From a virus (lineage: Duplodnaviria; Caudoviricetes), in the IMG/VR virus record IMGVR_UViG_3300025035_000066, positions 1 through 34,313 of that record: a stretch of DNA of 34,313 bases. One strand, written 5' to 3'. Made by a program: the position numbers and the translations under genes. The notes under the pieces were generated by a model. The model ran no database searches. It had not been told where the DNA came from and saw only the letters and a program-made list of their open reading frames with translations. Each line of letters begins with the position of its first letter. Positions within the stretch are counted from its first letter, which is position 1. Below, in pieces: positions 1 through 29,091 of this stretch.

Positions 1-276
1 TGGCGGGACAAGCAGAGTGTGGCCCACGCCTACTACCACAAGCGGCGGGCCATGTACGCAGCCGGGGAGTGGGAACCGGGGGCGGGACGGGACATGGGAC
101 TGGACACAATGCCGGACATGCACACGGACGTGGACTTCTCCCAGGCGGACATCCAGGACCTCCAGGACATGCTGGCCGAGAACGGGCTGGACACGGACAT
201 GGGGCGGGAAGTGTGGGCGGAACTGAGACGGCGCAAGGCAGTGAACATGCCGAAGCCGAAGGGGGATGAACTGTGA
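1..276 (+). CDS. Hypothetical protein, 3' part (5'-truncated by the window)
   Basis: Frame open from base 1 (WRDKQSVAHAYYH...) to TGA at 274-276; GC3-rich codons; acidic helical sequence. Confidence 0.6.
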   Translation, partial: WRDKQSVAHAYYHKRRAMYAAGEWEPGAGRDMGLDTMPDMHTDVDFSQADIQDLQDMLAENGLDTDMGREVWAELRRRKAVNMPKPKGDEL

Positions 277-484
277 GTCGGGAGGCAGGCGCATGAGCAT
301 CGTTGAGCAATCATAACCAGAAGCGCACCTAGAGCGGCCTTGCACCGGGGCGGGATGGTCGCCGCCATACATTCCGCAATTGCGTTGTTCACACGTGTTC
401 CTCCTTTGGTGGGACCGGGGCGGGGTTTCCATTATCCTGCCCCGGAAAGGACATTTTGACGGACATATACAAGGACACGCACCC

Positions 485-1000
485 GTGACCCTCACCGACT
501 ACCTCGCAGCCGAGGCCACGAACTACCGTGTGCGACGCAAGCTCACGGAGGCGGAAGCGTGGCAGATGATTGCCGAGTATCAGGCGGGCGCAAACGTCCA
601 GGCGCTGAACCGCAAGTGGGGCATACCCCAGGAGCGTTTCCGCAAAATCCTGGCGGCGGCGGGCGTGCAACCTAGGCGCATGGCCGAGTCCATCGCCCTG
701 TGGCACGAGGCCAACGGCAGGGGCAGCCCCAGCGCCGGGAGCGAAGCGCAGCAGAATGCAGGCTTTGTCTCCACCACGCCGGCCACGGTCAAGCCGCCGA
801 CCCATCGCCAGGTGGAGGACGTGCCATGCGGCTGGGATGGAGTGGAGCGAGTCGTGGTCAAGGTGGGGGCGGAGGAACAATGGTGCGCCAAATGCGGGGA
901 AACGATTGTCGGCGGCTGGTGCTATCGGTGCGGTGACAACGGGGACACGGTGCGGACTGTGGACGTGTTGCGGGACGGCGAGTTTGCCGTGATTCGGTGA
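485..1000 (+). CDS. HTH plus C-terminal Zn-ribbon protein, possible late regulator
   Basis: GTG at 485 is in frame with ORF 380..1000 and follows AAGGA; HTH-like segment (EYQAGANVQALNRKWGIPQERFRKILAAAGV); CAKC...CYRC motif. Confidence 0.6.
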   Translation: MTLTDYLAAEATNYRVRRKLTEAEAWQMIAEYQAGANVQALNRKWGIPQERFRKILAAAGVQPRRMAESIALWHEANGRGSPSAGSEAQQNAGFVSTTPATVKPPTHRQVEDVPCGWDGVERVVVKVGAEEQWCAKCGETIVGGWCYRCGDNGDTVRTVDVLRDGEFAVIR

Positions 1001-1039
1001 CCCGTTGTAAAAAGAATTGAACCAGTTTCCCCCGTGCCC

Positions 1040-1068
1040 TTGTATCTTACGAACAACCGTGCTAGAAT
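1040..1068 (+). promoter_or_regulatory. Sigma70-type promoter with extended -10
   Basis: TTGTAT (1040-1045), 17 bp, TAGAAT (1063-1068) preceded by TGc; ATG 7 nt downstream at 1076. Confidence 0.7.
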
Positions 1069-1075
1069 CTTGGAC

Positions 1076-1285
1076 ATGAGAACTATGCTTTTGTCAACCG
1101 AAGCGATAGAGGCGATTGAGGAACTGCTGACCCGTGCGGTCCAGGTTTCCCCGGACGGCTTCGCCCAGGTGTGGATGGCCGTCCACCTGGAACCCGTGGC
1201 AGACGGCGGGTCCGTGGTGCGTCAACTGTCCCTGTCGCCAGTACCGGGGATGACGGTCAGGCTGCCAAGGGGCAAGCGGGGATAG
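1076..1285 (+). CDS. Small hypothetical protein, probably leaderless
   Basis: ATG 1076 in frame with ORF 1034..1285, at the predicted TSS; 69 aa. Confidence 0.55.
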   Translation: MRTMLLSTEAIEAIEELLTRAVQVSPDGFAQVWMAVHLEPVADGGSVVRQLSLSPVPGMTVRLPRGKRG

Positions 1286-1330
1286 GGCGGGCGGGTGCTG
1301 CAACTGCATACTCGCCTGACAGATGCCGAA

Positions 1331-1383
1331 AGGCCGGGGCAAGATCGGGGGGATGACCTCCGATGTTGCTCCGGCCTCTTTTT
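1331..1383 (+). terminator. Intrinsic terminator / attenuator hairpin
   Basis: AGGCCGGGGCAA (1331-1342) pairs with TTGCTCCGGCCT (1366-1377); inner stem ATCGGGGG/CCTCCGAT; followed by CTTTTT. Confidence 0.65.
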
Positions 1384-1408
1384 ATGGATTGGACAAGGGG
1401 ACAGGGAC

Positions 1409-2254
1409 ATGGCGGGGAAGGGAAGCAAGGCTGCAAAAGAAACAGGGGACGAATTGCCGGACGCAAAGCCTGACGCCAACCAATGGCGTGACCGGATTGT
1501 GGACGTGCAAAAAATGCGGGCCGGGGACATCCTTCCTCACGTCGGCAACTGGCGGCGGCATGGTAAAGCACAAGCGGACGCAACCCGTGGGGTGCTTGGG
1601 GAGGTGGGCAAAATTTCTGCCCTCCACGCATGGTACTCAGAACGCAACGGAGGCAAGCTAACCTACTTCGACGGGCACCTGCGCCGGGACCTGCGGCCTG
1701 ACGAGGAATGGACCATCCTGATAACGGACCTGACCGACGAAGAGGCAGACTACGCACTGAGTACATTTGACCCGATAGCGGCAATGGCCGACGCCGACGC
1801 CGCAGCCCTGGACGCCTTGCTGCAAAGCGTCAACAGCGGCGAAGAAGCTGTACAGCAGATACTGGCGGATTTGGCGCAAAGTGTGGGACTGTATGAAGAA
1901 GTTGACCAAAACTACAGCCGGAAGATAGAACCGCCGATTTACGAACCACAGGGAGAGAAGCCGTCAATAGATGAACTGTATGACGATTCAAAAACGAAGG
2001 AACTGGTGTCAGGGATAGATGCTGCTGAGGGACTAACAGAGCAAGAAAAGGAGTTTTTGCGGATAGCTGCACAGCGGCATACTGTTTTGAATTTCAGTAG
2101 GATTGCCAATTACTATGCCCATTCTCCGGCTGAGGTTCAATCCGTCATGGAAGATAGCGCCCTGGTGATTATTGATTTCAATAAGGCAATAGAGCAAGGA
2201 TTTATTTCATTTTCTAACGAGATAGCAAAGATTGCCCGTGCAGATGGCTACTAA
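1409..2254 (+). CDS. ParB-like N-terminal domain fused to a glycosyltransferase-associated helical domain
   Basis: ATG 1409 after AGGGAC; ParB-type motifs (PHVGNWRRH, YFDGHLRR, LSTFDPIAAMA); C-terminal YSRKIEPPIYEP...FLRIAAQRH...IANYYAH...MEDSALVIIDFNKAIEQG domain, which I recall next to phage GREB1-like glycosyltransferases. Confidence 0.75.
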   Translation: MAGKGSKAAKETGDELPDAKPDANQWRDRIVDVQKMRAGDILPHVGNWRRHGKAQADATRGVLGEVGKISALHAWYSERNGGKLTYFDGHLRRDLRPDEEWTILITDLTDEEADYALSTFDPIAAMADADAAALDALLQSVNSGEEAVQQILADLAQSVGLYEEVDQNYSRKIEPPIYEPQGEKPSIDELYDDSKTKELVSGIDAAEGLTEQEKEFLRIAAQRHTVLNFSRIANYYAHSPAEVQSVMEDSALVIIDFNKAIEQGFISFSNEIAKIARADGY

Positions 2255-3266
2255 ACACAACTACTTAATTGTAGGTGCTGGGCTGACCGGGGCGGTGTTA
2301 GCCAGGGAGTTGACCAATTCCGGTGCTAGATGTCTGGTGATTGACAAACGCAACCATGTGGGCGGCAATGTCTATGATGAAGTGATAGAAGGTGTTCGGG
2401 TGCATCGGTATGGCCCGCATATCTTCCACACGAACAGTCAGCGCATTTGGGAGTATGTAAACAGGTATTCGGGATGGATGCCTTACGAGCATCGAGTCAA
2501 GGCCCGTTTTGGTGGAAAGACATATAGCTTCCCGCCCAATCTGTTGACCTACGAGCAGCTTGGCATCAAACCTGACGACCCCGCCTTGTCGCAAGTTCTG
2601 TTTGATACCTTCTTTCGGGGATACTCTGCAAAGCAATGGGGACGACCTGCTGATGAAGTGCCGGCAGGAATTATCAAGCGCATTCCCATTCGATATGATT
2701 ATGATGACCGATATTTCAGCGACAAATTCCAGGGGCTTCCTACCGAAGGCTACACGGCTTTGGTGAACAATCTACTTTTGGGCATTTCGGTGGAAACCAG
2801 TATGGACTATTTCAGGGACCGAGAAGCGTTGAACCTGGAAGCTGAGCGAGTTATCTACACGGGGCCGATTGATGCGCTGTATGGGTATGATGCTGGCAGG
2901 CTTGAATACCGTTCCTTGCGGTTTGAAACTGAAACGGTGAAGAGTGAGTCGTACCAGGGCGCAGCCAGTATCAATTACACTGACTTGTCACCAGTTTTCA
3001 CGCGGGTGCATGAATGGCGGTACTTTGGATGGCAAGATGCGAAGTCGGGCATCATTACCAGGGAATACCCCGAAAGCCATAACGAATCAAACGAGCCATA
3101 TTACCCCGTGAATGATGACGCCAACAATGGTCTGTATCGTAGCTATCAGAATCGGGCAGAGGAGGATGGGGTGATTGTGGCGGGACGATTGGGCAGGTAT
3201 TGCTACTACGACATGCATCAGGCTATCGGGGCGGCCCTGCGGCTGGCAGGTGACTTGCTATGCTAG
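2244..3266 (+). CDS. glf: UDP-galactopyranose mutase (FAD-dependent)
   Basis: GAGLTG FAD motif, RNHVGGNVYD, HRYGPHIFHTN, GYSAKQWG, RIPIRYDYDDRYFSDKFQGLP, YRSLRFE, EPYYPV, GRLGRYCYYDM; ATG 2244 overlaps the upstream stop. Confidence 0.95.
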   Translation: MATKHNYLIVGAGLTGAVLARELTNSGARCLVIDKRNHVGGNVYDEVIEGVRVHRYGPHIFHTNSQRIWEYVNRYSGWMPYEHRVKARFGGKTYSFPPNLLTYEQLGIKPDDPALSQVLFDTFFRGYSAKQWGRPADEVPAGIIKRIPIRYDYDDRYFSDKFQGLPTEGYTALVNNLLLGISVETSMDYFRDREALNLEAERVIYTGPIDALYGYDAGRLEYRSLRFETETVKSESYQGAASINYTDLSPVFTRVHEWRYFGWQDAKSGIITREYPESHNESNEPYYPVNDDANNGLYRSYQNRAEEDGVIVAGRLGRYCYYDMHQAIGAALRLAGDLLC

Positions 3267-4114
3267 ATAATTTTGCGGTGTTCATCACTACGCACGGGAG
3301 AGCAAACAAGGTAGCCACCTATGATACTTTGCGAAAGCACGGGTACACGGGGAAAATCTATCTTATATGCGACGATGAAGACAAGACCCTAGACGAATAT
3401 CAACGTAAATATGGCGACGAGGTGATTGTCTTTGACAAAGAAGCGGCGGCACAATACGTAGATGCTGGCGACAATTCCCCCAGTCGAAAGGCTGTAGTCT
3501 ATGCCCGCAATGAATGTTACAGAATCGCCAGGGAGTTGGAGCTGCAATATATTTTGCAGGTGGACGATGACTATAAAGACTTCAATTATACGTTTGATTC
3601 AAAATTCAAGTATCTAAATCGACCCATTAGGAATCTTGATAGAGTCTTTTCTGCAACCCTGAAATACTTTGCCAGTATTCCCGCCTATTGCGTAACTTTT
3701 GCGCAGGGAGGTGACTTCTTTGGTGGAGAGGATGCCGATTATGCAAAAACTGTAATGACAAGACGAAAGATAATGAACACGTTTTTTCTTGATGTTGATC
3801 GACAATTCTCTTTTTTTGGCCGCATGAATGACGATGTAAACGCCTATGTGACGAATGGCTATCAAGGAAAATTGATGCTCTCCTTGATGCAGCTACGCAT
3901 TGAACAACTTCCTACTCAAAGTGCGTCGGGCGGAATGACAGAGGTTTATCAGGATCTCGGAACTTATCAAAAATCCTTCTATTCTGTCATGTATGCCCCG
4001 GCATTTGTGAAGATTGTTATGATGGGGACAAAACATAGAAGGCTGCACCACATGGTGGTTTGGGAAAATGCAGCACCTCGCATTCTTGATGAGAGATGGC
4101 GAAAGGCCAGATAA
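3260..4114 (+). CDS. GREB1-like / TET-associated (TAGT-type) GT-A glycosyltransferase
   Basis: FAVFITTHGRA start, ICDDED, VVYARN, LQVDDDY (DxD-like), RKIMNTFF, GRMNDDVN, Q..TQS.SGGMTEVY...GTYQKSFYSVMYAP..V, HRRLHH.V.W. Confidence 0.8.
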   Translation: MLDNFAVFITTHGRANKVATYDTLRKHGYTGKIYLICDDEDKTLDEYQRKYGDEVIVFDKEAAAQYVDAGDNSPSRKAVVYARNECYRIARELELQYILQVDDDYKDFNYTFDSKFKYLNRPIRNLDRVFSATLKYFASIPAYCVTFAQGGDFFGGEDADYAKTVMTRRKIMNTFFLDVDRQFSFFGRMNDDVNAYVTNGYQGKLMLSLMQLRIEQLPTQSASGGMTEVYQDLGTYQKSFYSVMYAPAFVKIVMMGTKHRRLHHMVVWENAAPRILDERWRKAR

Positions 4115-4333
4115 ATGGAATCGCCCCTTGTGAGGCCAGAAAAAACGTGTAGATTCTGCGGACAACCTTTACCAGACTATCCGAGCAAAACTCGCATATA
4201 TTGCAGTGCTCAATGTGCAATTTTGGATAGCATTCCGGATCGATGTGAGAACTGCACAGAATTTGCAGAACAAGATCCGTGGCTTACTCATACTGAAACA
4301 ATGCCAGTCATATCCCCCTCTCCCGTTCCATAA
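4115..4333 (+). CDS. Small Cys-rich Zn-finger protein
   Basis: CRFCG...YCSAQC...CENC; starts directly after the GT stop. Confidence 0.5.
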   Translation: MESPLVRPEKTCRFCGQPLPDYPSKTRIYCSAQCAILDSIPDRCENCTEFAEQDPWLTHTETMPVISPSPVP

Positions 4334-4351
4334 TTCTAAAAGAAGATATTC

Positions 4352-4741
4352 ATGGCAAAAACCAAGCTCACCCCGGAAACCCAGGAGAAAATCTGCAACG
4401 CACTGCGGGCGGGCAACCATGCGAAGGTGGCCGCCGAGTTCGGGGGTGTGAGCGAGTCCACTTTTTACGGCTGGCTGAACAAAGGCGAAGCGGCAAACCG
4501 GGGCATATACCGAAAGTTTTTGGAGTCTGTTAAAAAGGCCGAGGCCGACGCTGAAACCGTGCGAGTGGCTCGCATCTCCCAGGCGGGACAAAGCGGGGTG
4601 TGGCAGGCCGATGCGTGGTGGCTGGAACGCAAGTTCCCGGAACGGTGGGGGCGGCGGGTGCAGGAGATAACGGGCGCAGGGGGCGGCCCGGTAGAAGTGA
4701 AGTCCGTCGTCATCTACCTGCCAGATAATGGTCGTGATTAA
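4352..4741 (+). CDS. terS: Terminase small subunit
   Basis: N-terminal HTH (KLTPETQEKICNALRAGN...GVSESTFYGWL), WQADAWWLERKFPERW and ITGAGGGPVEV...YLPDNGR tail; directly upstream of TerL. Confidence 0.85.
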   Translation: MAKTKLTPETQEKICNALRAGNHAKVAAEFGGVSESTFYGWLNKGEAANRGIYRKFLESVKKAEADAETVRVARISQAGQSGVWQADAWWLERKFPERWGRRVQEITGAGGGPVEVKSVVIYLPDNGRD

Positions 4742-4756
4742 AAGGATGCCCCATAC

Positions 4757-6155
4757 ATGAGTGTATTGGAGATTCGCCCTCAGCCGGGACCGCAGGTGGC
4801 TTTTCTGTCCTCACCGGCAGATGTGGTCATATACGGCGGCGCGGCTGGGGGCGGTTAGTAAAACTTATGCGCTGCTACTCGAAACATTACGCCATATAGA
4901 CAACAAGAACTTTGGGGCCGTTATCTTCCGGCGCACCTCCCCGCAGATTCGCAACGAGGGGGCGCTGTGGGACCAGAGCGAGCAGGTGTTTGAGGGAACC
5001 GGGGCCATCCCCAGGGAGTCAACGCTGGACTGGACATTTCCCAGCGGGGCGGGCGTCAAGTTTGCCCACATGGAACACGACAAGAACCGGCTGGACTTTC
5101 AGGGCGCACAGATTCCCCTTATCGGCTGGGACGAACTCACCCACTTCACCCGCAGACAGTTTTTTTATATGCTATCCCGGAACCGTTCGACGTGTGGCGT
5201 CAAGCCCTACATGCGGGCAACTTGCAACCCCGTCCCAGACGACGACGAGACGGGCGGCTGGATTCACGAGTTTGTGGATTGGTACATTGGGGAGGACGGT
5301 TACGCAATCCCCGAACGCAGCGGGGTAGTTCGTTGGTTTGTCATGGCGAATGATTCCCTGCGCTGGGCAGATGAACCGCAGGCGTTGGCAGAGCAGTATC
5401 CGAGTAGCACGCCAAAATCGTTTACCTTTATTATGGCATCCGTGTATGACAATCCCAAGCTGCTGGAAGCCGACCCCGGCTATCTTGCCAATCTGCAAGC
5501 CTTGCCGATGGTGGAGCGGGAGCAGTTGCTGGGGGACCAGCGGCGCGGCGGCAACTGGAAGGTAAAGCCCACGGCGGGCAAGGTGTTCAACCGGGAGTGG
5601 TTCGAGATTGTGGACGCCGTGCCGGACGGGGGACGGACCGTGCGCTTTTGGGATTTGGCGGCGACGGAGAAGAAGCTGAAGGGTGATCCCGACTTCACAG
5701 CCGGGGTGAAGATGAAACGGGTGGGCGGGATGTTCTACGTGCTGGACAGTATCGAGGAACGCATGGGGCCGGCCTACGCTGACACGGCCATGCTGAACAC
5801 GGCCAGCCAGGACGGGAGGAGCGTGGCGATTCGCTGGGAAGAAGAAGGCGGCGCAAGTGGCAAGCGGGACAGCCACGCCATTGTGAAGAACCTGCTGGGC
5901 TACGATGCCCGCGGCGTCAAGCCACAGGGTGAGAAGTTGATTCGGGCCAGGGGCCTGTCGGCCCAGGCATTGGCCGGGAACGTCAAGCTGTTGCGGGGCG
6001 GCTGGAACGAGCGGTGGTTGAACCATATGCACGGGCAACCCGACCTGGAGCATGACGACACAATGGATGCCAGTAGCGGGGCCTTCAATGAATTGGCAGA
6101 TCGTCCCCGTCCCCAGGGGACACGCATCCCGCAAGCAACCGGCAAGGGGTGGTGA
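4757..6155 (+). pseudogene. terL: Terminase large subunit split by a 4-bp insertion in Walker A (pseudogene, recoded gene or sequence error)
   Basis: ATG 4757 (AAAGGA upstream) reads MSVLEIRPQPGPQVAFLSSPADVVIYGGAAGGG then TAG TAA; KTYALL... resumes at 4860 in the +1 frame; Walker B IGWDELTHF and nuclease motifs (RFWDLA, EEEGG, HDDTMDA) intact. Confidence 0.9.
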
Positions 6156-6352
6156 TGATGGACGACGACGAGCACATGCAGCACATGCAGCGCATCCGGG
6201 ACGAATTGGACGCCTTGCGTCTGGCCCGGCAGGACGTTACAGGGGTAACGGAACTGATTCGCATTCGCAACCGACAAGGCGAATTGACGCAGGAATACTG
6301 GCGACTGCTACGGCAGCGAGGGGGCGACGATGAGGTTAGGCGAACTGTCTGA
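6149..6352 (+). CDS. Small hypothetical protein
   Basis: 67-aa helical ORF overlapping the TerL stop. Confidence 0.5.
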   Translation: MVMMDDDEHMQHMQRIRDELDALRLARQDVTGVTELIRIRNRQGELTQEYWRLLRQRGGDDEVRRTV

Positions 6353-25931: not shown

Positions 25932-26231
25932 ATGAGAATTAAGACACAGGGAACAGTCTGGACAGTTCTGTTGTCCGCGGCGATGCTCATCGGCCAGTGG
26001 CTGGACGATACCTACTTCCACACCGGGATACGGGAATGGTTGCCGAAGTTCCTGAACAGTGCGCAGATGATCCTTGGGCTGGGTGCAGCGGCCGTTGGTC
26101 TAGCCTACACGATCTATATGGAGACCTTGGCAAAGCAGGCGCACAATTTTGGCCCAGACCACCTCCCCGACACGCGCTCAGTCAACTGGACGAGAGAGCC
26201 GGAAAAATCCCTACTGCGAAGGATTCTATGA
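25932..26231 (+). CDS. Membrane protein B, holin-like (2 TM), paralogue of A
   Basis: Shares EW.P.FL.S.Q...G and C-terminal TR...KS..R..L with protein A. Confidence 0.6.
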   Translation: MRIKTQGTVWTVLLSAAMLIGQWLDDTYFHTGIREWLPKFLNSAQMILGLGAAAVGLAYTIYMETLAKQAHNFGPDHLPDTRSVNWTREPEKSLLRRIL

Positions 26232-26617
26232 CCGTGAAAATTCTAATCGTGGAGGACGACGAGGGGCAGGCCCATCTTTACCGCAAAGCGTTGGAAAGGA
26301 TGTCTCTTGTCGAAGCGGTAAAATCCTGTCATTCTGGCCGTGAGGCGTTGGAGGTGGACTGGACAAACTACGATGTGGTGGTCGTGGATCTGTTCATGCC
26401 GGGCATGTCGGGCGACCAGGTGATCGCCCATGCCTATGAGAAGTGGGGCGAACTTTTGCCGCCCGTCCTCATTTTTACGGCCAGTCCAATGGTGCTGATT
26501 GATAAGATCTCGCTACCTATGCCACCCACCCCGATCTATCAGAAGATCGGGGGCCCGGAAAGTATCCTCCACATTTTAAGATCGGCTGTTCATGAAGCTT
26601 TTAATCGTCGCGCCTAA
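26228..26617 (+). CDS. Stand-alone response regulator receiver (CheY-like)
   Basis: ATGA overlap; KILIVEDD, phosphoacceptor D54 (VVDLFMPGMSG), T84, K106. Confidence 0.9.
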   Translation: MTVKILIVEDDEGQAHLYRKALERMSLVEAVKSCHSGREALEVDWTNYDVVVVDLFMPGMSGDQVIAHAYEKWGELLPPVLIFTASPMVLIDKISLPMPPTPIYQKIGGPESILHILRSAVHEAFNRRA

Positions 26618-27227
26618 ATCAAATTTGAACACGTTCAGCGAGATCTTGGATGCCACTGGACCGGGGGAAACCAGGGTTTTGCACGGCACGGTAACGGTGC
26701 GTGAGGTGATGACCGAGATCCGAACCGGACAGTTTACCCACATTTATTTCGCCGGACACGGGGACGATCAGTCTCTGATGTTTTCAGACGGTCTTCTGAA
26801 CAAAGCGCTGCTGGCTGATTCCATCCAGGCGGCGGGGGCCATTATTCTGGTCCTGTTCAATTCGTGTCAGAGTTTGGGGCCGGCCTTGGCTGCGTACGGA
26901 GCGGGCGTCCATTATGTGATCGGCTGGCAAGGAAATGTTTCAGATTCCGCCGCAATCAACTACGCCTACGCCTTCTGGGCCACCTACCGGCTGAGCAATG
27001 ATGTGCATGTGGCTCACCGCACGGGCCGGGAGGCTGTGATCTTCGGCAACCCGGGCCACGAGACCCCGGACCTGATCAACGGACGCAACAGCGGCTATCA
27101 GCAACGGGTCGAGTCGCTACAGGTGCAAGTGAGCCGACAGCGCCAATGGCTGTTTGTCCTGATGGTGACAACGGTGGCTTCGCTGGTTATCGAGACGATC
27201 ACTCTGTTTTTGATGTGGGGGACGTGA
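26592..27227 (+). CDS. CHAT (caspase/HetF-like) cysteine protease with C-terminal coiled coil and TM anchor
   Basis: HIYFAGHG (H56) and LVLFNSCQS (C92) dyad; GVHYVIGW..NVSDSAA..YAYAFW; terminal hydrophobic helix. Confidence 0.85.
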   Translation: MKLLIVAPKSNLNTFSEILDATGPGETRVLHGTVTVREVMTEIRTGQFTHIYFAGHGDDQSLMFSDGLLNKALLADSIQAAGAIILVLFNSCQSLGPALAAYGAGVHYVIGWQGNVSDSAAINYAYAFWATYRLSNDVHVAHRTGREAVIFGNPGHETPDLINGRNSGYQQRVESLQVQVSRQRQWLFVLMVTTVASLVIETITLFLMWGT

Positions 27228-27939: not shown

Positions 27940-29091
27940 TTAAACCAGCAGGGGTTGGTGTATTAGGTTGCCATCGTCCGAGATCATGATGGCAGGATGG
28001 GGGTCTGTGGCGTCGGCGTCGGCGGCTGACCATTTGCGGGGCCAGATGTCCTGTTCCCACATTTGCCTGATTCGGGTTTCCTCTTCGGCATTGATCAGAT
28101 CGATACCGGCCCGGCGCTGGATGTCCAGGATCGTGTCCAGGCCATAGGCCCGGCCCTCCATTGTCAGCGGCCCCATGCGCTGCACGTTGCGGGACCATTG
28201 TCCATCCTGGCGCATTTCCGGCTCAATTTTGCGCTTGCGCCATGCCGGGAGTTTAAGATCCCGGTACAGGGGCTTGAGCTCGAGCAGCGGCGCATAGCGG
28301 CTATATTCGGTGTGGGTGGCCAGTAGCCTCTCCAGGGCCGTGTCTCGGCTGGCCAGGGGGCAACCTACGCAGCCGGTGCGCACGTCGTCCTCCCCATAAA
28401 TGACGGCGATGCTATCGGCCTGATAGCCGTGTCGATCCTGCTCAAAGTAAAGCCAATCGTAGACATGACACAATCTCCAATGCAGCAAGGGTGATAATGT
28501 GTCGGCGAGACTGTCGGGCGTGGAAACCTGAAACCAACCCTGGCCACATTCCCCACTGTCTTTGCTGCACGAAATGGCAATGCGCTGATCTCGTGCAGCG
28601 CTTTCCCCCAAGCGAACACCCGTCAGCATGAGAAGCTTTTCCCCAGCGTCTTGTCTGAGTTGCCCCAGAGCCAGGTGCATTGGCTCGATCTTGATCTGGG
28701 GCGTACACCAGCGAAATGTGTTCGACGGCGGAGGGACGCCACGACCCAGCATGTAGACAAAATATCTATCATCCAGCTTGGGCAGCACGATCTTTGTTTG
28801 GATGCCATTGGCGGCCAACTGATCGAGGAGAACGGTTGCCCCATCCCGAAGGGGCGGCAACTCCATGCGGGTGTCCGCGTACATCACGGTTAGGCTGGCC
28901 GGGGCCGGGATCAGCCCGGATTGGACGGCCCAGGCCACAAAGATCACGGTGGCGGTGCTGTCCTTGCCTCCAGAATAAGCAATCGTCCAGTGGTTGTACT
29001 TTTCGCCATAGGCGGCAAGACTGGCGAGAGATTGCTCGATTGAGGAATCTAGGCTTGTGCGCTTGTCGTCGAAAAGGCTATTTTGTCTCAT
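27940..29091 (-). CDS. PAPS reductase-family PP-loop protein, DndC-like
   Basis: YSGGKDST, YADTRMELP, RWCT..IKIEPM, LTGVRLGESAARD, RTGCVGCPL, GPLT..GR, LINAEEE..IRQMW. Confidence 0.85.
   Translation of the reverse strand: MRQNSLFDDKRTSLDSSIEQSLASLAAYGEKYNHWTIAYSGGKDSTATVIFVAWAVQSGLIPAPASLTVMYADTRMELPPLRDGATVLLDQLAANGIQTKIVLPKLDDRYFVYMLGRGVPPPSNTFRWCTPQIKIEPMHLALGQLRQDAGEKLLMLTGVRLGESAARDQRIAISCSKDSGECGQGWFQVSTPDSLADTLSPLLHWRLCHVYDWLYFEQDRHGYQADSIAVIYGEDDVRTGCVGCPLASRDTALERLLATHTEYSRYAPLLELKPLYRDLKLPAWRKRKIEPEMRQDGQWSRNVQRMGPLTMEGRAYGLDTILDIQRRAGIDLINAEEETRIRQMWEQDIWPRKWSAADADATDPHPAIMISDDGNLIHQPLLV

What the first reader, a model, noticed from the sequence alone, without database searches (positions are those of the whole stretch)
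1409..4741. Candidate packaging-linked galactofuranosylation system: ParB fusion + UDP-galactopyranose mutase + GREB1/TAGT-type glycosyltransferase directly upstream of TerS
Seen: three overlapping genes (1409-2254, 2244-3266, 3260-4114) at the head of the packaging operon. Known: Glf makes UDP-galactofuranose, normally for cell-envelope glycans; phage GREB1-like GT-A enzymes glycosylate hydroxymethyl-pyrimidines in DNA; ParB-like genes next to terminase commonly accompany phage DNA-modifying enzymes. Inference: the phage makes its own UDP-Galf donor and puts a furanose sugar on DNA during packaging, with the ParB fusion as adaptor, giving protection against restriction/CRISPR. I know of no described Galf-modified DNA base. 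No TET or hydroxymethylase is in this window, so the acceptor is unknown; virion protein glycosylation is the main alternative.
Basis: partly seen in the sequence, partly recalled or inferred. Interest (0 to 1): 0.9.

Follow-up and report, generated by a model that had tools for sequence, protein, structure and literature searches.

The report
Clamp-tethered phage galactofuranose transferase cassette
Just before its DNA-packaging genes this uncultured phage carries a swappable three-gene cassette (a ParB-like protein predicted to dock a sugar transferase, the transferase itself, and a member of the enzyme family that makes the five-membered-ring sugar galactofuranose) that likely decorates the phage's own DNA with this sugar, although no enzyme known to prepare DNA bases for sugars was found in the phage.

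Summary
The three overlapping genes are real: a ParB-fold fusion, a UDP-galactopyranose mutase with its catalytic residues, and a TAGT (GT-A) glycosyltransferase. The core unit is not Glf but an unnamed ~115-residue adaptor domain plus TAGT, found in 87 of 87 sequence clusters examined and predicted to form a complex (0.88 versus 0.00 for controls). The adaptor is either fused to ParB beside terminase or stands alone among replication genes with a sliding-clamp-type motif; both point to DNA as acceptor. Glf is one of several swappable sugar-supply genes (3 of 87 other clusters). No TET, thymidylate-synthase homologue or C5-methylase was found in about 52 kb of this phage, nor TET in five complete cultured carriers, so the hydroxymethyl-pyrimidine route looks excluded and the acceptor atom is unknown. 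Against: the Glf's nearest relatives with context lie in capsid-gene glycosylation clusters; related TAGTs lack Glf. A sister variant lacks the whole cassette. A phage Glf feeding DNA galactosylation is already proposed for Pootjesviridae, and arabinofuranosyl DNA is known. Verdict: new variant of a known kind, chemistry untested. In passing: terL has a conserved stop-led 4-base gap, likely a ribosome hop.

The parts
293..6115 (.). Exchangeable block: replaced in a sister variant by about 2.3 kb holding only terS and a gpA-type terL
   Evidence: L281 matches window 1-292 (96.9%) and 6116-6302 (95.2%) only; its ORFs; contigs of public runs branch at 289 and 6116
1409..1885 (+). ParB/sulfiredoxin-fold N-terminal domain of the fusion (about residues 25-158), backbone-like GC
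   Evidence: VIA-align Z 11.5 to PadC, 10.0 to pNOB8 ParB-N, 9.9 to KorB; GxxR motif at G89-R92; GC 0.594 for 1409-1903
1886..2254 (+). Unnamed adaptor domain (residues about 160-281), predicted to bind TAGT
   Evidence: 1158 clusters at 50% identity; predicted complex 0.88 vs best control 0.00; GC 0.444 for 1904-2254
2244..3266 (+). UDP-galactopyranose mutase (Glf), short clade lacking about 25-30 residues of domain 2
   Evidence: GC 0.512
3260..4114 (+). TAGT/GREB1-type GT-A glycosyltransferase
   Evidence: GC 0.436
4115..4333 (+). 72-aa cysteine-containing ORF of unknown role, part of the low-GC block
   Evidence: no Pfam or PHROG hit; GC 0.457
4352..4741 (+). Terminase small subunit
   Evidence: phrog_4102 E 9.5e-34
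4757..6155 (+). Terminase large subunit in two frames, with a stop-led 4-base gap (4856-4859) in Walker A; likely decoded by a ribosome hop
   Evidence: 5' piece matches phrog_979 151-178, 3' piece 178-612; same layout in 33 distinct terL genes including this one

Best explanation
The cassette likely attaches galactofuranose to the phage's own DNA after replication: the ParB-fold domain would ride on DNA, its C-terminal adaptor is predicted to hold the TAGT transferase there, and the mutase likely supplies UDP-galactofuranose from host UDP-galactose. Shown: gene identities, conserved catalytic residues, constant adaptor-TAGT pairing, absence of known base-priming enzymes, exchangeability of the block. 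Predicted: adaptor-TAGT binding. Inferred: DNA loading by ParB, DNA as acceptor, Galf as donor, late expression with the terminase genes. Because no hydroxymethyl or hydroxy base can be made by any detected enzyme, the sugar most likely goes on an unprimed position (an exocyclic base nitrogen, or a phosphate or DNA end) at limited sites; the likely benefit is evasion of some host defence, not blanket protection.
For: Adaptor domain present with TAGT in 87 of 87 cluster representatives, directly adjacent in 80; 28 of 28 cultured-phage records with the adaptor also have TAGT. Predicted complex: score 0.88, best of 3 controls 0.00, runs agree in at least 98% of contacts, partner pLDDT at least 88; the mark was reached by 116 of 157 solved complexes and 2 of 215 mismatched pairs, counts only roughly valid with my alignments. 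Stand-alone adaptors carry an N-terminal Q-x-x-L/M-F motif, like the beta-clamp-binding motif (consensus recalled), in 6 of 13, against 8 of 1157 background ORF starts and 1 of 63 fusion linkers, and in 3 of 3 stand-alone proteins of a second set; four such loci encode DNA polymerase A and a clamp homologue next door. The last 120 residues of TAGT are net basic in 87 of 87. The slot beside adaptor-TAGT holds varying sugar-supply or tailoring genes: Glf, RGP-like, epimerase, UDP-glucose dehydrogenase, nucleotidyl- and cytidylyltransferases, sulfotransferase, second TAGT. The window's TAGT is sister (94/76, under the star threshold) to the clade holding all five other Glf-linked TAGTs. Glf keeps H59, H62, W132, R146, Y157, N244, R254, Y287, R315, Y321, invariant in 51 short-clade proteins. 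ParB proteins without a DNA-binding domain activate phage DNA-modifying enzymes (PMC13229309).
Against: No known acceptor chemistry: no TET, thymidylate-synthase homologue or C5-methylase found. The Glf's nearest relatives with context lie between capsid and head-tail genes with GT2/GT4 and methyltransferase genes and no TAGT; none of 160 Glf-query loci carried TAGT. Four TAGTs inside the same clade have no Glf beside them, and none of 5 records or host genomes searched, including Frischella japonica, has glf. Human GREB1 of the same family glycosylates a protein (PMC7968844). The basic charge may partly serve to bind the acidic adaptor (net -11). Several clamp-motif carriers are relatives, so the counts are not independent. 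The backbone avoids palindromic sites (GTCGAC 0 vs 18.5 expected, CGCG 84 vs 329).
Confidence: 0.5

Rival explanations
1. TAGT puts galactofuranose on virion (or other phage) proteins; the cassette is a late-expressed protein glycosylation unit.
For: Nearest Glf relatives with context sit in capsid/head-tail glycosyltransferase clusters, resembling the Cluster O mycobacteriophage genes proposed to modify capsid (PMC4351075 passages); GREB1 is a protein O-GlcNAc transferase; no DNA handle is made.
Against: Those clusters use other transferase families and lack adaptor and TAGT; adaptor is tied to ParB or to a clamp-type motif among replication genes; TAGTs are basic (median pI 8.7) while 9 of 9 proteins sampled from the capsid-side clusters are acidic (pI 4.8-6.5).
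Confidence: 0.2
2. Adaptor-TAGT modifies DNA, but with an ordinary host sugar; Glf is a passenger or acts on another nucleotide sugar.
For: 80 of 87 clusters have adaptor and TAGT adjacent, most with no sugar gene; related TAGTs and hosts lack glf; Glf has its own GC level (0.51 vs 0.44), suggesting separate insertion; its domain-2 deletion could alter specificity.
Against: Glf is inserted with overlaps on both sides between two partner genes and recurs beside related TAGTs in 3 other clusters; catalytic residues intact.
Confidence: 0.15
3. The acceptor is a hydroxylated base made by an undetected enzyme (divergent oxygenase, host activity, the PAPS-reductase-like gene at 27940-29091, or a gene in the unsequenced gap).
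For: All characterised phage TAGT-like DNA enzymes I read about use 5hmC (bioRxiv 2023.12.21.572611); many phage 5mYOX escape PF12851 (PMC13229309); the control TET scored only 28 bits; contigs do not close the genome.
Against: Phage c5 (31.8 kb, complete) has adaptor and TAGT but no annotated or Pfam-detected oxygenase, thymidylate synthase or methylase; none of 133 neighbouring proteins is a TET or thymidylate synthase.
Confidence: 0.08
4. The cassette alters host surface glycans (receptor masking or serotype conversion).
For: Glf normally serves envelope glycans (established knowledge); best Foldseek hit of TAGT is prophage TarP (E 1.5e-5).
Against: The fold hits are generic GT-A (TM 0.4-0.5, Z up to 13.3 with many ties); verified DNA-acting GT-A enzymes also hit TarP first; position in the late operon and ParB/clamp tethering fit badly.
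Confidence: 0.07

Closest known systems
Phage 5mYOX (TET/JBP)-ParB-glycosyltransferase hypermodification clusters (PMC13229309; bioRxiv 10.1101/2023.12.21.572611)
   Same: ParB-fold helper without a classical DNA-binding domain, GT-A transferase with R...DDD...E/D-D motif, terminase neighbourhood, extra sugar enzymes
   Different: No dioxygenase or C5-methylase; the ParB C-terminal part is an unnamed domain predicted to bind the transferase itself; donor predicted to be a furanose
Pootjesviridae (Rhizobium phage RL38J1) galactosyl-5-hydroxycytosine pathway (PMC13326640)
   Same: Phage-encoded UDP-galactopyranose mutase proposed to make UDP-Galf for the first sugar on DNA
   Different: There the base is made by a thymidylate-synthase homologue and the listed transferases match GT-B-type structures; here neither, and the Glf belongs to another lineage
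RB69/DLP3 arabinofuranosyl-5-hydroxycytosine (PMC13326640)
   Same: Furanose sugar on phage DNA from a phage-made UDP-furanose
   Different: Pre-replicative full substitution in T4-like phages; different enzymes
TAGT family PF20691 / phrog_842 (named after beta-glucosyl-HMC-alpha-glucosyltransferase), JGT and GREB1
   Same: Family membership above cut-off, GT-A fold
   Different: This subfamily is adaptor-linked and TET-free; no member of it is characterised in the papers I could search
Cluster O mycobacteriophage glycosyltransferase/O-methyltransferase genes (PMC4351075; virion glycosylation shown later, recalled)
   Same: Sugar genes in the late region; the sister clade of this Glf sits in such clusters
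   Different: Different transferase families and position; no adaptor or ParB fusion in the cluster

Membership tests
UDP-galactopyranose mutase (TIGR00031, PF03275) | Profile score above curated cut-off | tested here: met
   327.6 vs 303.75 bits; 229 vs 26.3
UDP-galactopyranose mutase (TIGR00031, PF03275) | FAD-binding motif and substrate/catalytic residues (E. coli H56, H59, W156, R170, Y181, N268, R278, Y311, R340, Y346; roles recalled) | tested here: met
   Aligned one to one with 1i8t; invariant in 51 short-clade proteins; N80 position is His
UDP-galactopyranose mutase (TIGR00031, PF03275) | Complete helical domain 2 | tested here: not met
   About 25-30 residues missing, shared with the short clade
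UDP-galactopyranose mutase (TIGR00031, PF03275) | Interconverts UDP-Galp and UDP-Galf | not testable with these tools
   Needs an enzyme assay
TAGT (PF20691) | Profile score, GT-A fold and R...DDD...acidic motif | tested here: met
   123.7 vs 27.5 bits; GT-A matches; R83, D103-D104, N190-D192 invariant in 23 sequences
TAGT (PF20691) | Transfers sugar to a hydroxymethyl-pyrimidine in DNA | not testable with these tools
   No priming enzyme found to supply such a base
ParB/sulfiredoxin nucleotide-binding fold | ParB N-terminal fold with GxxR motif | tested here: met
   Z 11.5, rmsd 3.3 A, 122 residues to PadC; 23 of 45 family members match PF02195, the window protein does not
Chromosome-partition ParB | Helix-turn-helix parS-binding domain after the N-domain | tested here: inconclusive
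   C-terminal domain has no match above Z 3.0 in a whole-model search; not folded alone
5mYOX-ParB-GT hypermodification clusters | TET/JBP dioxygenase in the phage | tested here: not met
   0 of 1, 0 of 4 overlapping contigs, 0 of 38 viral records, 0 of 5 cultured carriers and 0 of 10 host genomes with the Cooper gp2 control positive; genome not closed
Pootjesviridae/RB69-type glycosyl-5-hydroxycytosine pathways | Thymidylate-synthase homologue making the modified nucleotide | tested here: not met
   Absent from window and overlapping contigs; found in 1 of 21 records, a 196-kb Vibrio phage
Virion-glycosylation clusters (Cluster O type) | GT2/GT4-type transferases and O-methyltransferase among capsid genes | tested here: not met
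   Only TAGT, upstream of terS; no such genes among window proteins scanned
Virion-glycosylation clusters (Cluster O type) | Glycans on capsid or tail proteins | not testable with these tools
   Needs virion glycoproteomics

The most novel reading that the evidence does not exclude
Adaptor-TAGT is a widespread, uncharacterised two-subunit DNA glycosyltransferase that is carried along DNA by a clamp (ParB at packaging, beta-clamp at replication) and glycosylates canonical, unprimed DNA (base nitrogen or backbone); this phage's version writes galactofuranose, a new DNA modification by a new route, and its donor can be changed by swapping one gene.
Probability: 0.33. Interest if true: 0.88.

Novelty: new variant of a known kind. 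Interest (0 to 1): 0.62.

Why it matters
Every phage DNA glycosylation route in the papers I read needs a hydroxylated base first. A family of more than a thousand sequence clusters, present in cultured phages (Lactobacillus c5, halovirus HHTV-2, Rac-like E. coli prophages), appears to do without one, so its product would be new DNA chemistry and is testable now with cultured phages. The Glf version names a specific donor, which makes the assay sharp, and a natural sister variant without the cassette gives a comparison. If the acceptor is protein, it is a new route to virion glycosylation.

Tried and rejected
Two independent recruitments of Glf into the cassette: the window's Glf and the L015-type Glfs fall apart in the tree, but the AU test does not reject one origin (p 0.46), so not claimed. 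A strictly Galf-specific TAGT clade: rejected, since four members lack Glf and 0 of 5 records/hosts have glf. terL as a dead pseudogene or assembly error: rejected; the gap is in L003 and in all 7 of 8 laid runs that cover it (3 not marked as possible source) and recurs in diverged terL genes. Special RNA structure at the gap: none (z 0.30). Promoter/terminator scan: at chance level. Contexts of the closest Glf relatives (P0002-P0006, 60-81%) could not be obtained; the metagenome scan covered 4 of 64 parts and returned only more distant ones. No RNA holder listed. Known fold for the adaptor domain: none above Z 3.0, but it was not folded alone; Atlas gave only unnamed viral clusters. The first Glf tree fell back to the quick method. 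One search had no positive control; one search supplied one. Of 73 loci first chosen for the TET search, 38 viral loci and 10 genome loci were searched. The paper that defined TAGT (Iyer et al. 2013, recalled) was not held and may discuss TET-free ParB-TAGT operons. Paper searches found no characterisation of a TET-free adaptor-TAGT unit.
Full report
Observation. The window is a 34,313-base virus record, 62% complete by CheckV, of a tailed phage (terminase, portal, capsid, tail). The three genes lie where stated and overlap by 11 and 7 nt. Glf passes the curated cut-off of TIGR00031, aligns with E. coli UGM at all residues I recall as catalytic or substrate-binding, and lacks about 25-30 residues of domain 2, a deletion shared by a clade of short proteins in which those residues stay invariant (51 sequences). 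The transferase is TAGT (PF20691) with a generic GT-A fold. The first gene has a ParB-fold N-domain and an unnamed C-domain; the PHROG 'ParB-like' hit is to the C-domain. A 72-aa ORF separates TAGT from terS. GC falls from 0.59 to 0.44 inside the ParB gene, is 0.51 in Glf, 0.44 in TAGT and returns to 0.61 in terS: the phage's own ParB domain appears fused to an imported adaptor-TAGT block, with Glf likely added separately (inference).

The core unit. I fetched 39 viral and the best 80 of 119 genomic TAGT loci. Leaving out L003 (this phage), 118 loci form 87 clusters at 85% identity. All 87 representatives have the C-domain upstream, directly adjacent in 80; most are followed by terS and terL. 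In cultured phages 28 of 28 records with the domain also have TAGT, among them Lactobacillus phage c5, Rac-like coliphages, HHTV-2 and Nocardia phage NTR1. The domain has 1158 relatives at the 50% level. It is predicted to bind TAGT: score 0.88, best control 0.00, at least 98% agreement of contacts, partner pLDDT at least 88; the mark was reached by 116 of 157 solved complexes and 2 of 215 mismatches, roughly valid here. The interface includes invariant residues Y178, R223, A233, Y236 and D256. This supports, but does not show, the adaptor role.

DNA or protein. In 13 distinct loci the adaptor stands alone. The script listed 19 rows; I dropped two mis-sorted fusions, two duplicate rows and two unclear ORFs. 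Six of 13 start with Q-x-x-L/M-F, which resembles the beta-clamp-binding motif (recalled), against 8 of 1157 background starts and 1 of 63 fusion linkers; some carriers are relatives. Among 21 hits of at most 200 aa in a second set, 18 looked like truncated fusions and all 3 true stand-alone proteins had the motif. Four stand-alone loci encode DNA polymerase A and a clamp homologue next door. So the transferase is tied either to ParB near terminase or to a clamp motif near the replisome. TAGT C-terminal halves are basic in 87 of 87, though the acidic adaptor may account for part of this. Against: the Glf's nearest relatives with context sit between capsid and head-tail genes with GT2, GT4 and methyltransferase genes, none of 160 Glf-query loci had TAGT, and GREB1 glycosylates a protein (PMC7968844, passages). 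I put DNA at about two in three.

Donor. The slot beside adaptor-TAGT holds different sugar genes in different phages, and they track TAGT subclades. Glf occurs in 7 of 38 other viral loci and 1 of 80 genomic loci, 3 of 87 clusters, always after TAGT; only here does it lie between the partners. The window's TAGT is sister, with moderate support (94/76), to the clade with all five other Glf-linked TAGTs, but four members of that clade lack Glf and 0 of 5 records or hosts searched have glf. A single origin of the TAGT-linked Glfs is not rejected. UDP-Galf as donor is likely, not shown.

Acceptor. Contigs overlapping both ends (L281, 96.9%; G056, 99.2%) add about 2.3 and 15.9 kb, giving about 52.5 of an estimated 55 kb; they do not close the circle and may come from the sister variant. 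No TET/JBP, thymidylate-synthase homologue, C5-methylase or N6/N4-methylase was found, and the 29 added ORFs scanned are replication and recombination genes or unknown. TET was absent from 38 viral records, 7 of them at least 90% complete, and from 5 cultured carriers and 10 host genomes while the Cooper gp2 control was found; 0 of 133 neighbouring proteins is a TET or thymidylate synthase. Divergent oxygenases can escape PF12851 (PMC13229309, section 12). I infer an unprimed acceptor.

Function. A sister variant has the same flanks but only terS and a gpA-type terL in place of the 5.8-kb block; both occur in the same runs (branches at 289 and 6116). The cassette is therefore accessory and inherited with its terminase. 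The backbone strongly avoids palindromic sites, which fits restriction pressure not relieved by blanket modification, or a recent acquisition.

terL. The Walker A codons are interrupted by a stop and one more base. The gap is in all 7 of 8 laid runs that cover it. Five of 120 TerL homologues (four distinct starts, besides this phage's own record) are called with the same out-of-frame start. Of 100 pattern matches 47 were terL, 39 distinct; 33 have a stop-led gap of 4-9 bases ending in an NGN codon before Lys, with G in the middle in 28 of 28 cases where it is not forced, and 6 have one extra base. This is the layout of translational bypassing, as supported for Streptomyces phage Hau3 terminase (PMC10732093, abstract and passages); terL is likely functional.

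Comparison with what is known. PMC13326640 (abstract, sections 25, 26, 28, 29, supplement passages; the supplement was cut when stored) shows arabinofuranosyl bases and proposes UDP-Galf from a phage mutase for RL38J1 DNA. PMC13229309 (abstract, sections 9, 12, 13) shows ParB activation of T-dioxygenases. bioRxiv 2023.12.21.572611 (abstract, passages, sections 8, 13; supplements not seen) shows GT-A enzymes on 5hmC. PMC4351075 (passages) proposes capsid glycosylation. The cassette works like the post-replicative ParB-GT systems but fails their defining test, the dioxygenase. Ten searches found no study of the TET-free unit; the paper defining TAGT was not available. This scan has noted the same module in at least 69 genomes, some with Glf, which lowers the rarity of this instance and is not independent support.

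Verdict. Real; new variant of a known kind; best explanation 0.5; interest 0.62.

Noticed in passing
window 4757-6155, gap at 4856-4859: terL Walker A is split by a stop-led 4-base gap; 33 distinct terL genes show 4-9-base gaps at the same codon ending in an NGN landing codon, a likely ribosome hop.
   Followed up: yes
L281 (2636-4935) versus window 293-6115: Sister variant with a different terminase type (gpA-like) and no cassette, sharing portal and flanks, in the same runs.
   Followed up: yes
L232, L233, L248, L249, L250, L261; P0165, P0211, P0222: Stand-alone adaptors with an N-terminal clamp-type motif, set among DNA polymerase, clamp and helicase genes.
   Followed up: yes
L042-L054, L080, L121, L122, L128: A phage family with short Glf, GT4, GT2, methyltransferases and an unnamed ~243-aa protein between capsid and head-tail genes: candidate furanose virion glycosylation.
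   Followed up: partly
L275 2979-3710: RGP-like gene (PF03214, E 3.7e-9) directly after adaptor-TAGT: possibly an unrelated pyranose-furanose mutase in the same slot, or a second transferase.
   Followed up: partly
L019 1811-2662, L027 8122-9000: Sulfotransferase between TAGT and Glf: possible sulfated furanose.
   Followed up: no
L014, L024, L033, L037, L038, L041: One TAGT clade always has a cytidylyltransferase, with or without a histidine phosphatase, between adaptor and TAGT: a CDP-linked donor.
   Followed up: partly
L283 19217-20837: Rac-like E. coli prophages carry ParB fusion and TAGT right after trkG, where K-12 keeps a short ParB-like remnant (ynaK, recalled).
   Followed up: no
window 27940-29091 (-): PAPS-reductase/DndC-like gene (phrog_12882; TIGR03183 below cut-off), possibly another DNA-modifying enzyme.
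   Followed up: no
window 25997-27227: Response-regulator receiver and CHAT-like domain proteins after the tail genes.
   Followed up: no
whole window: Strong avoidance of CGCG and of several palindromic hexamers.
   Followed up: partly
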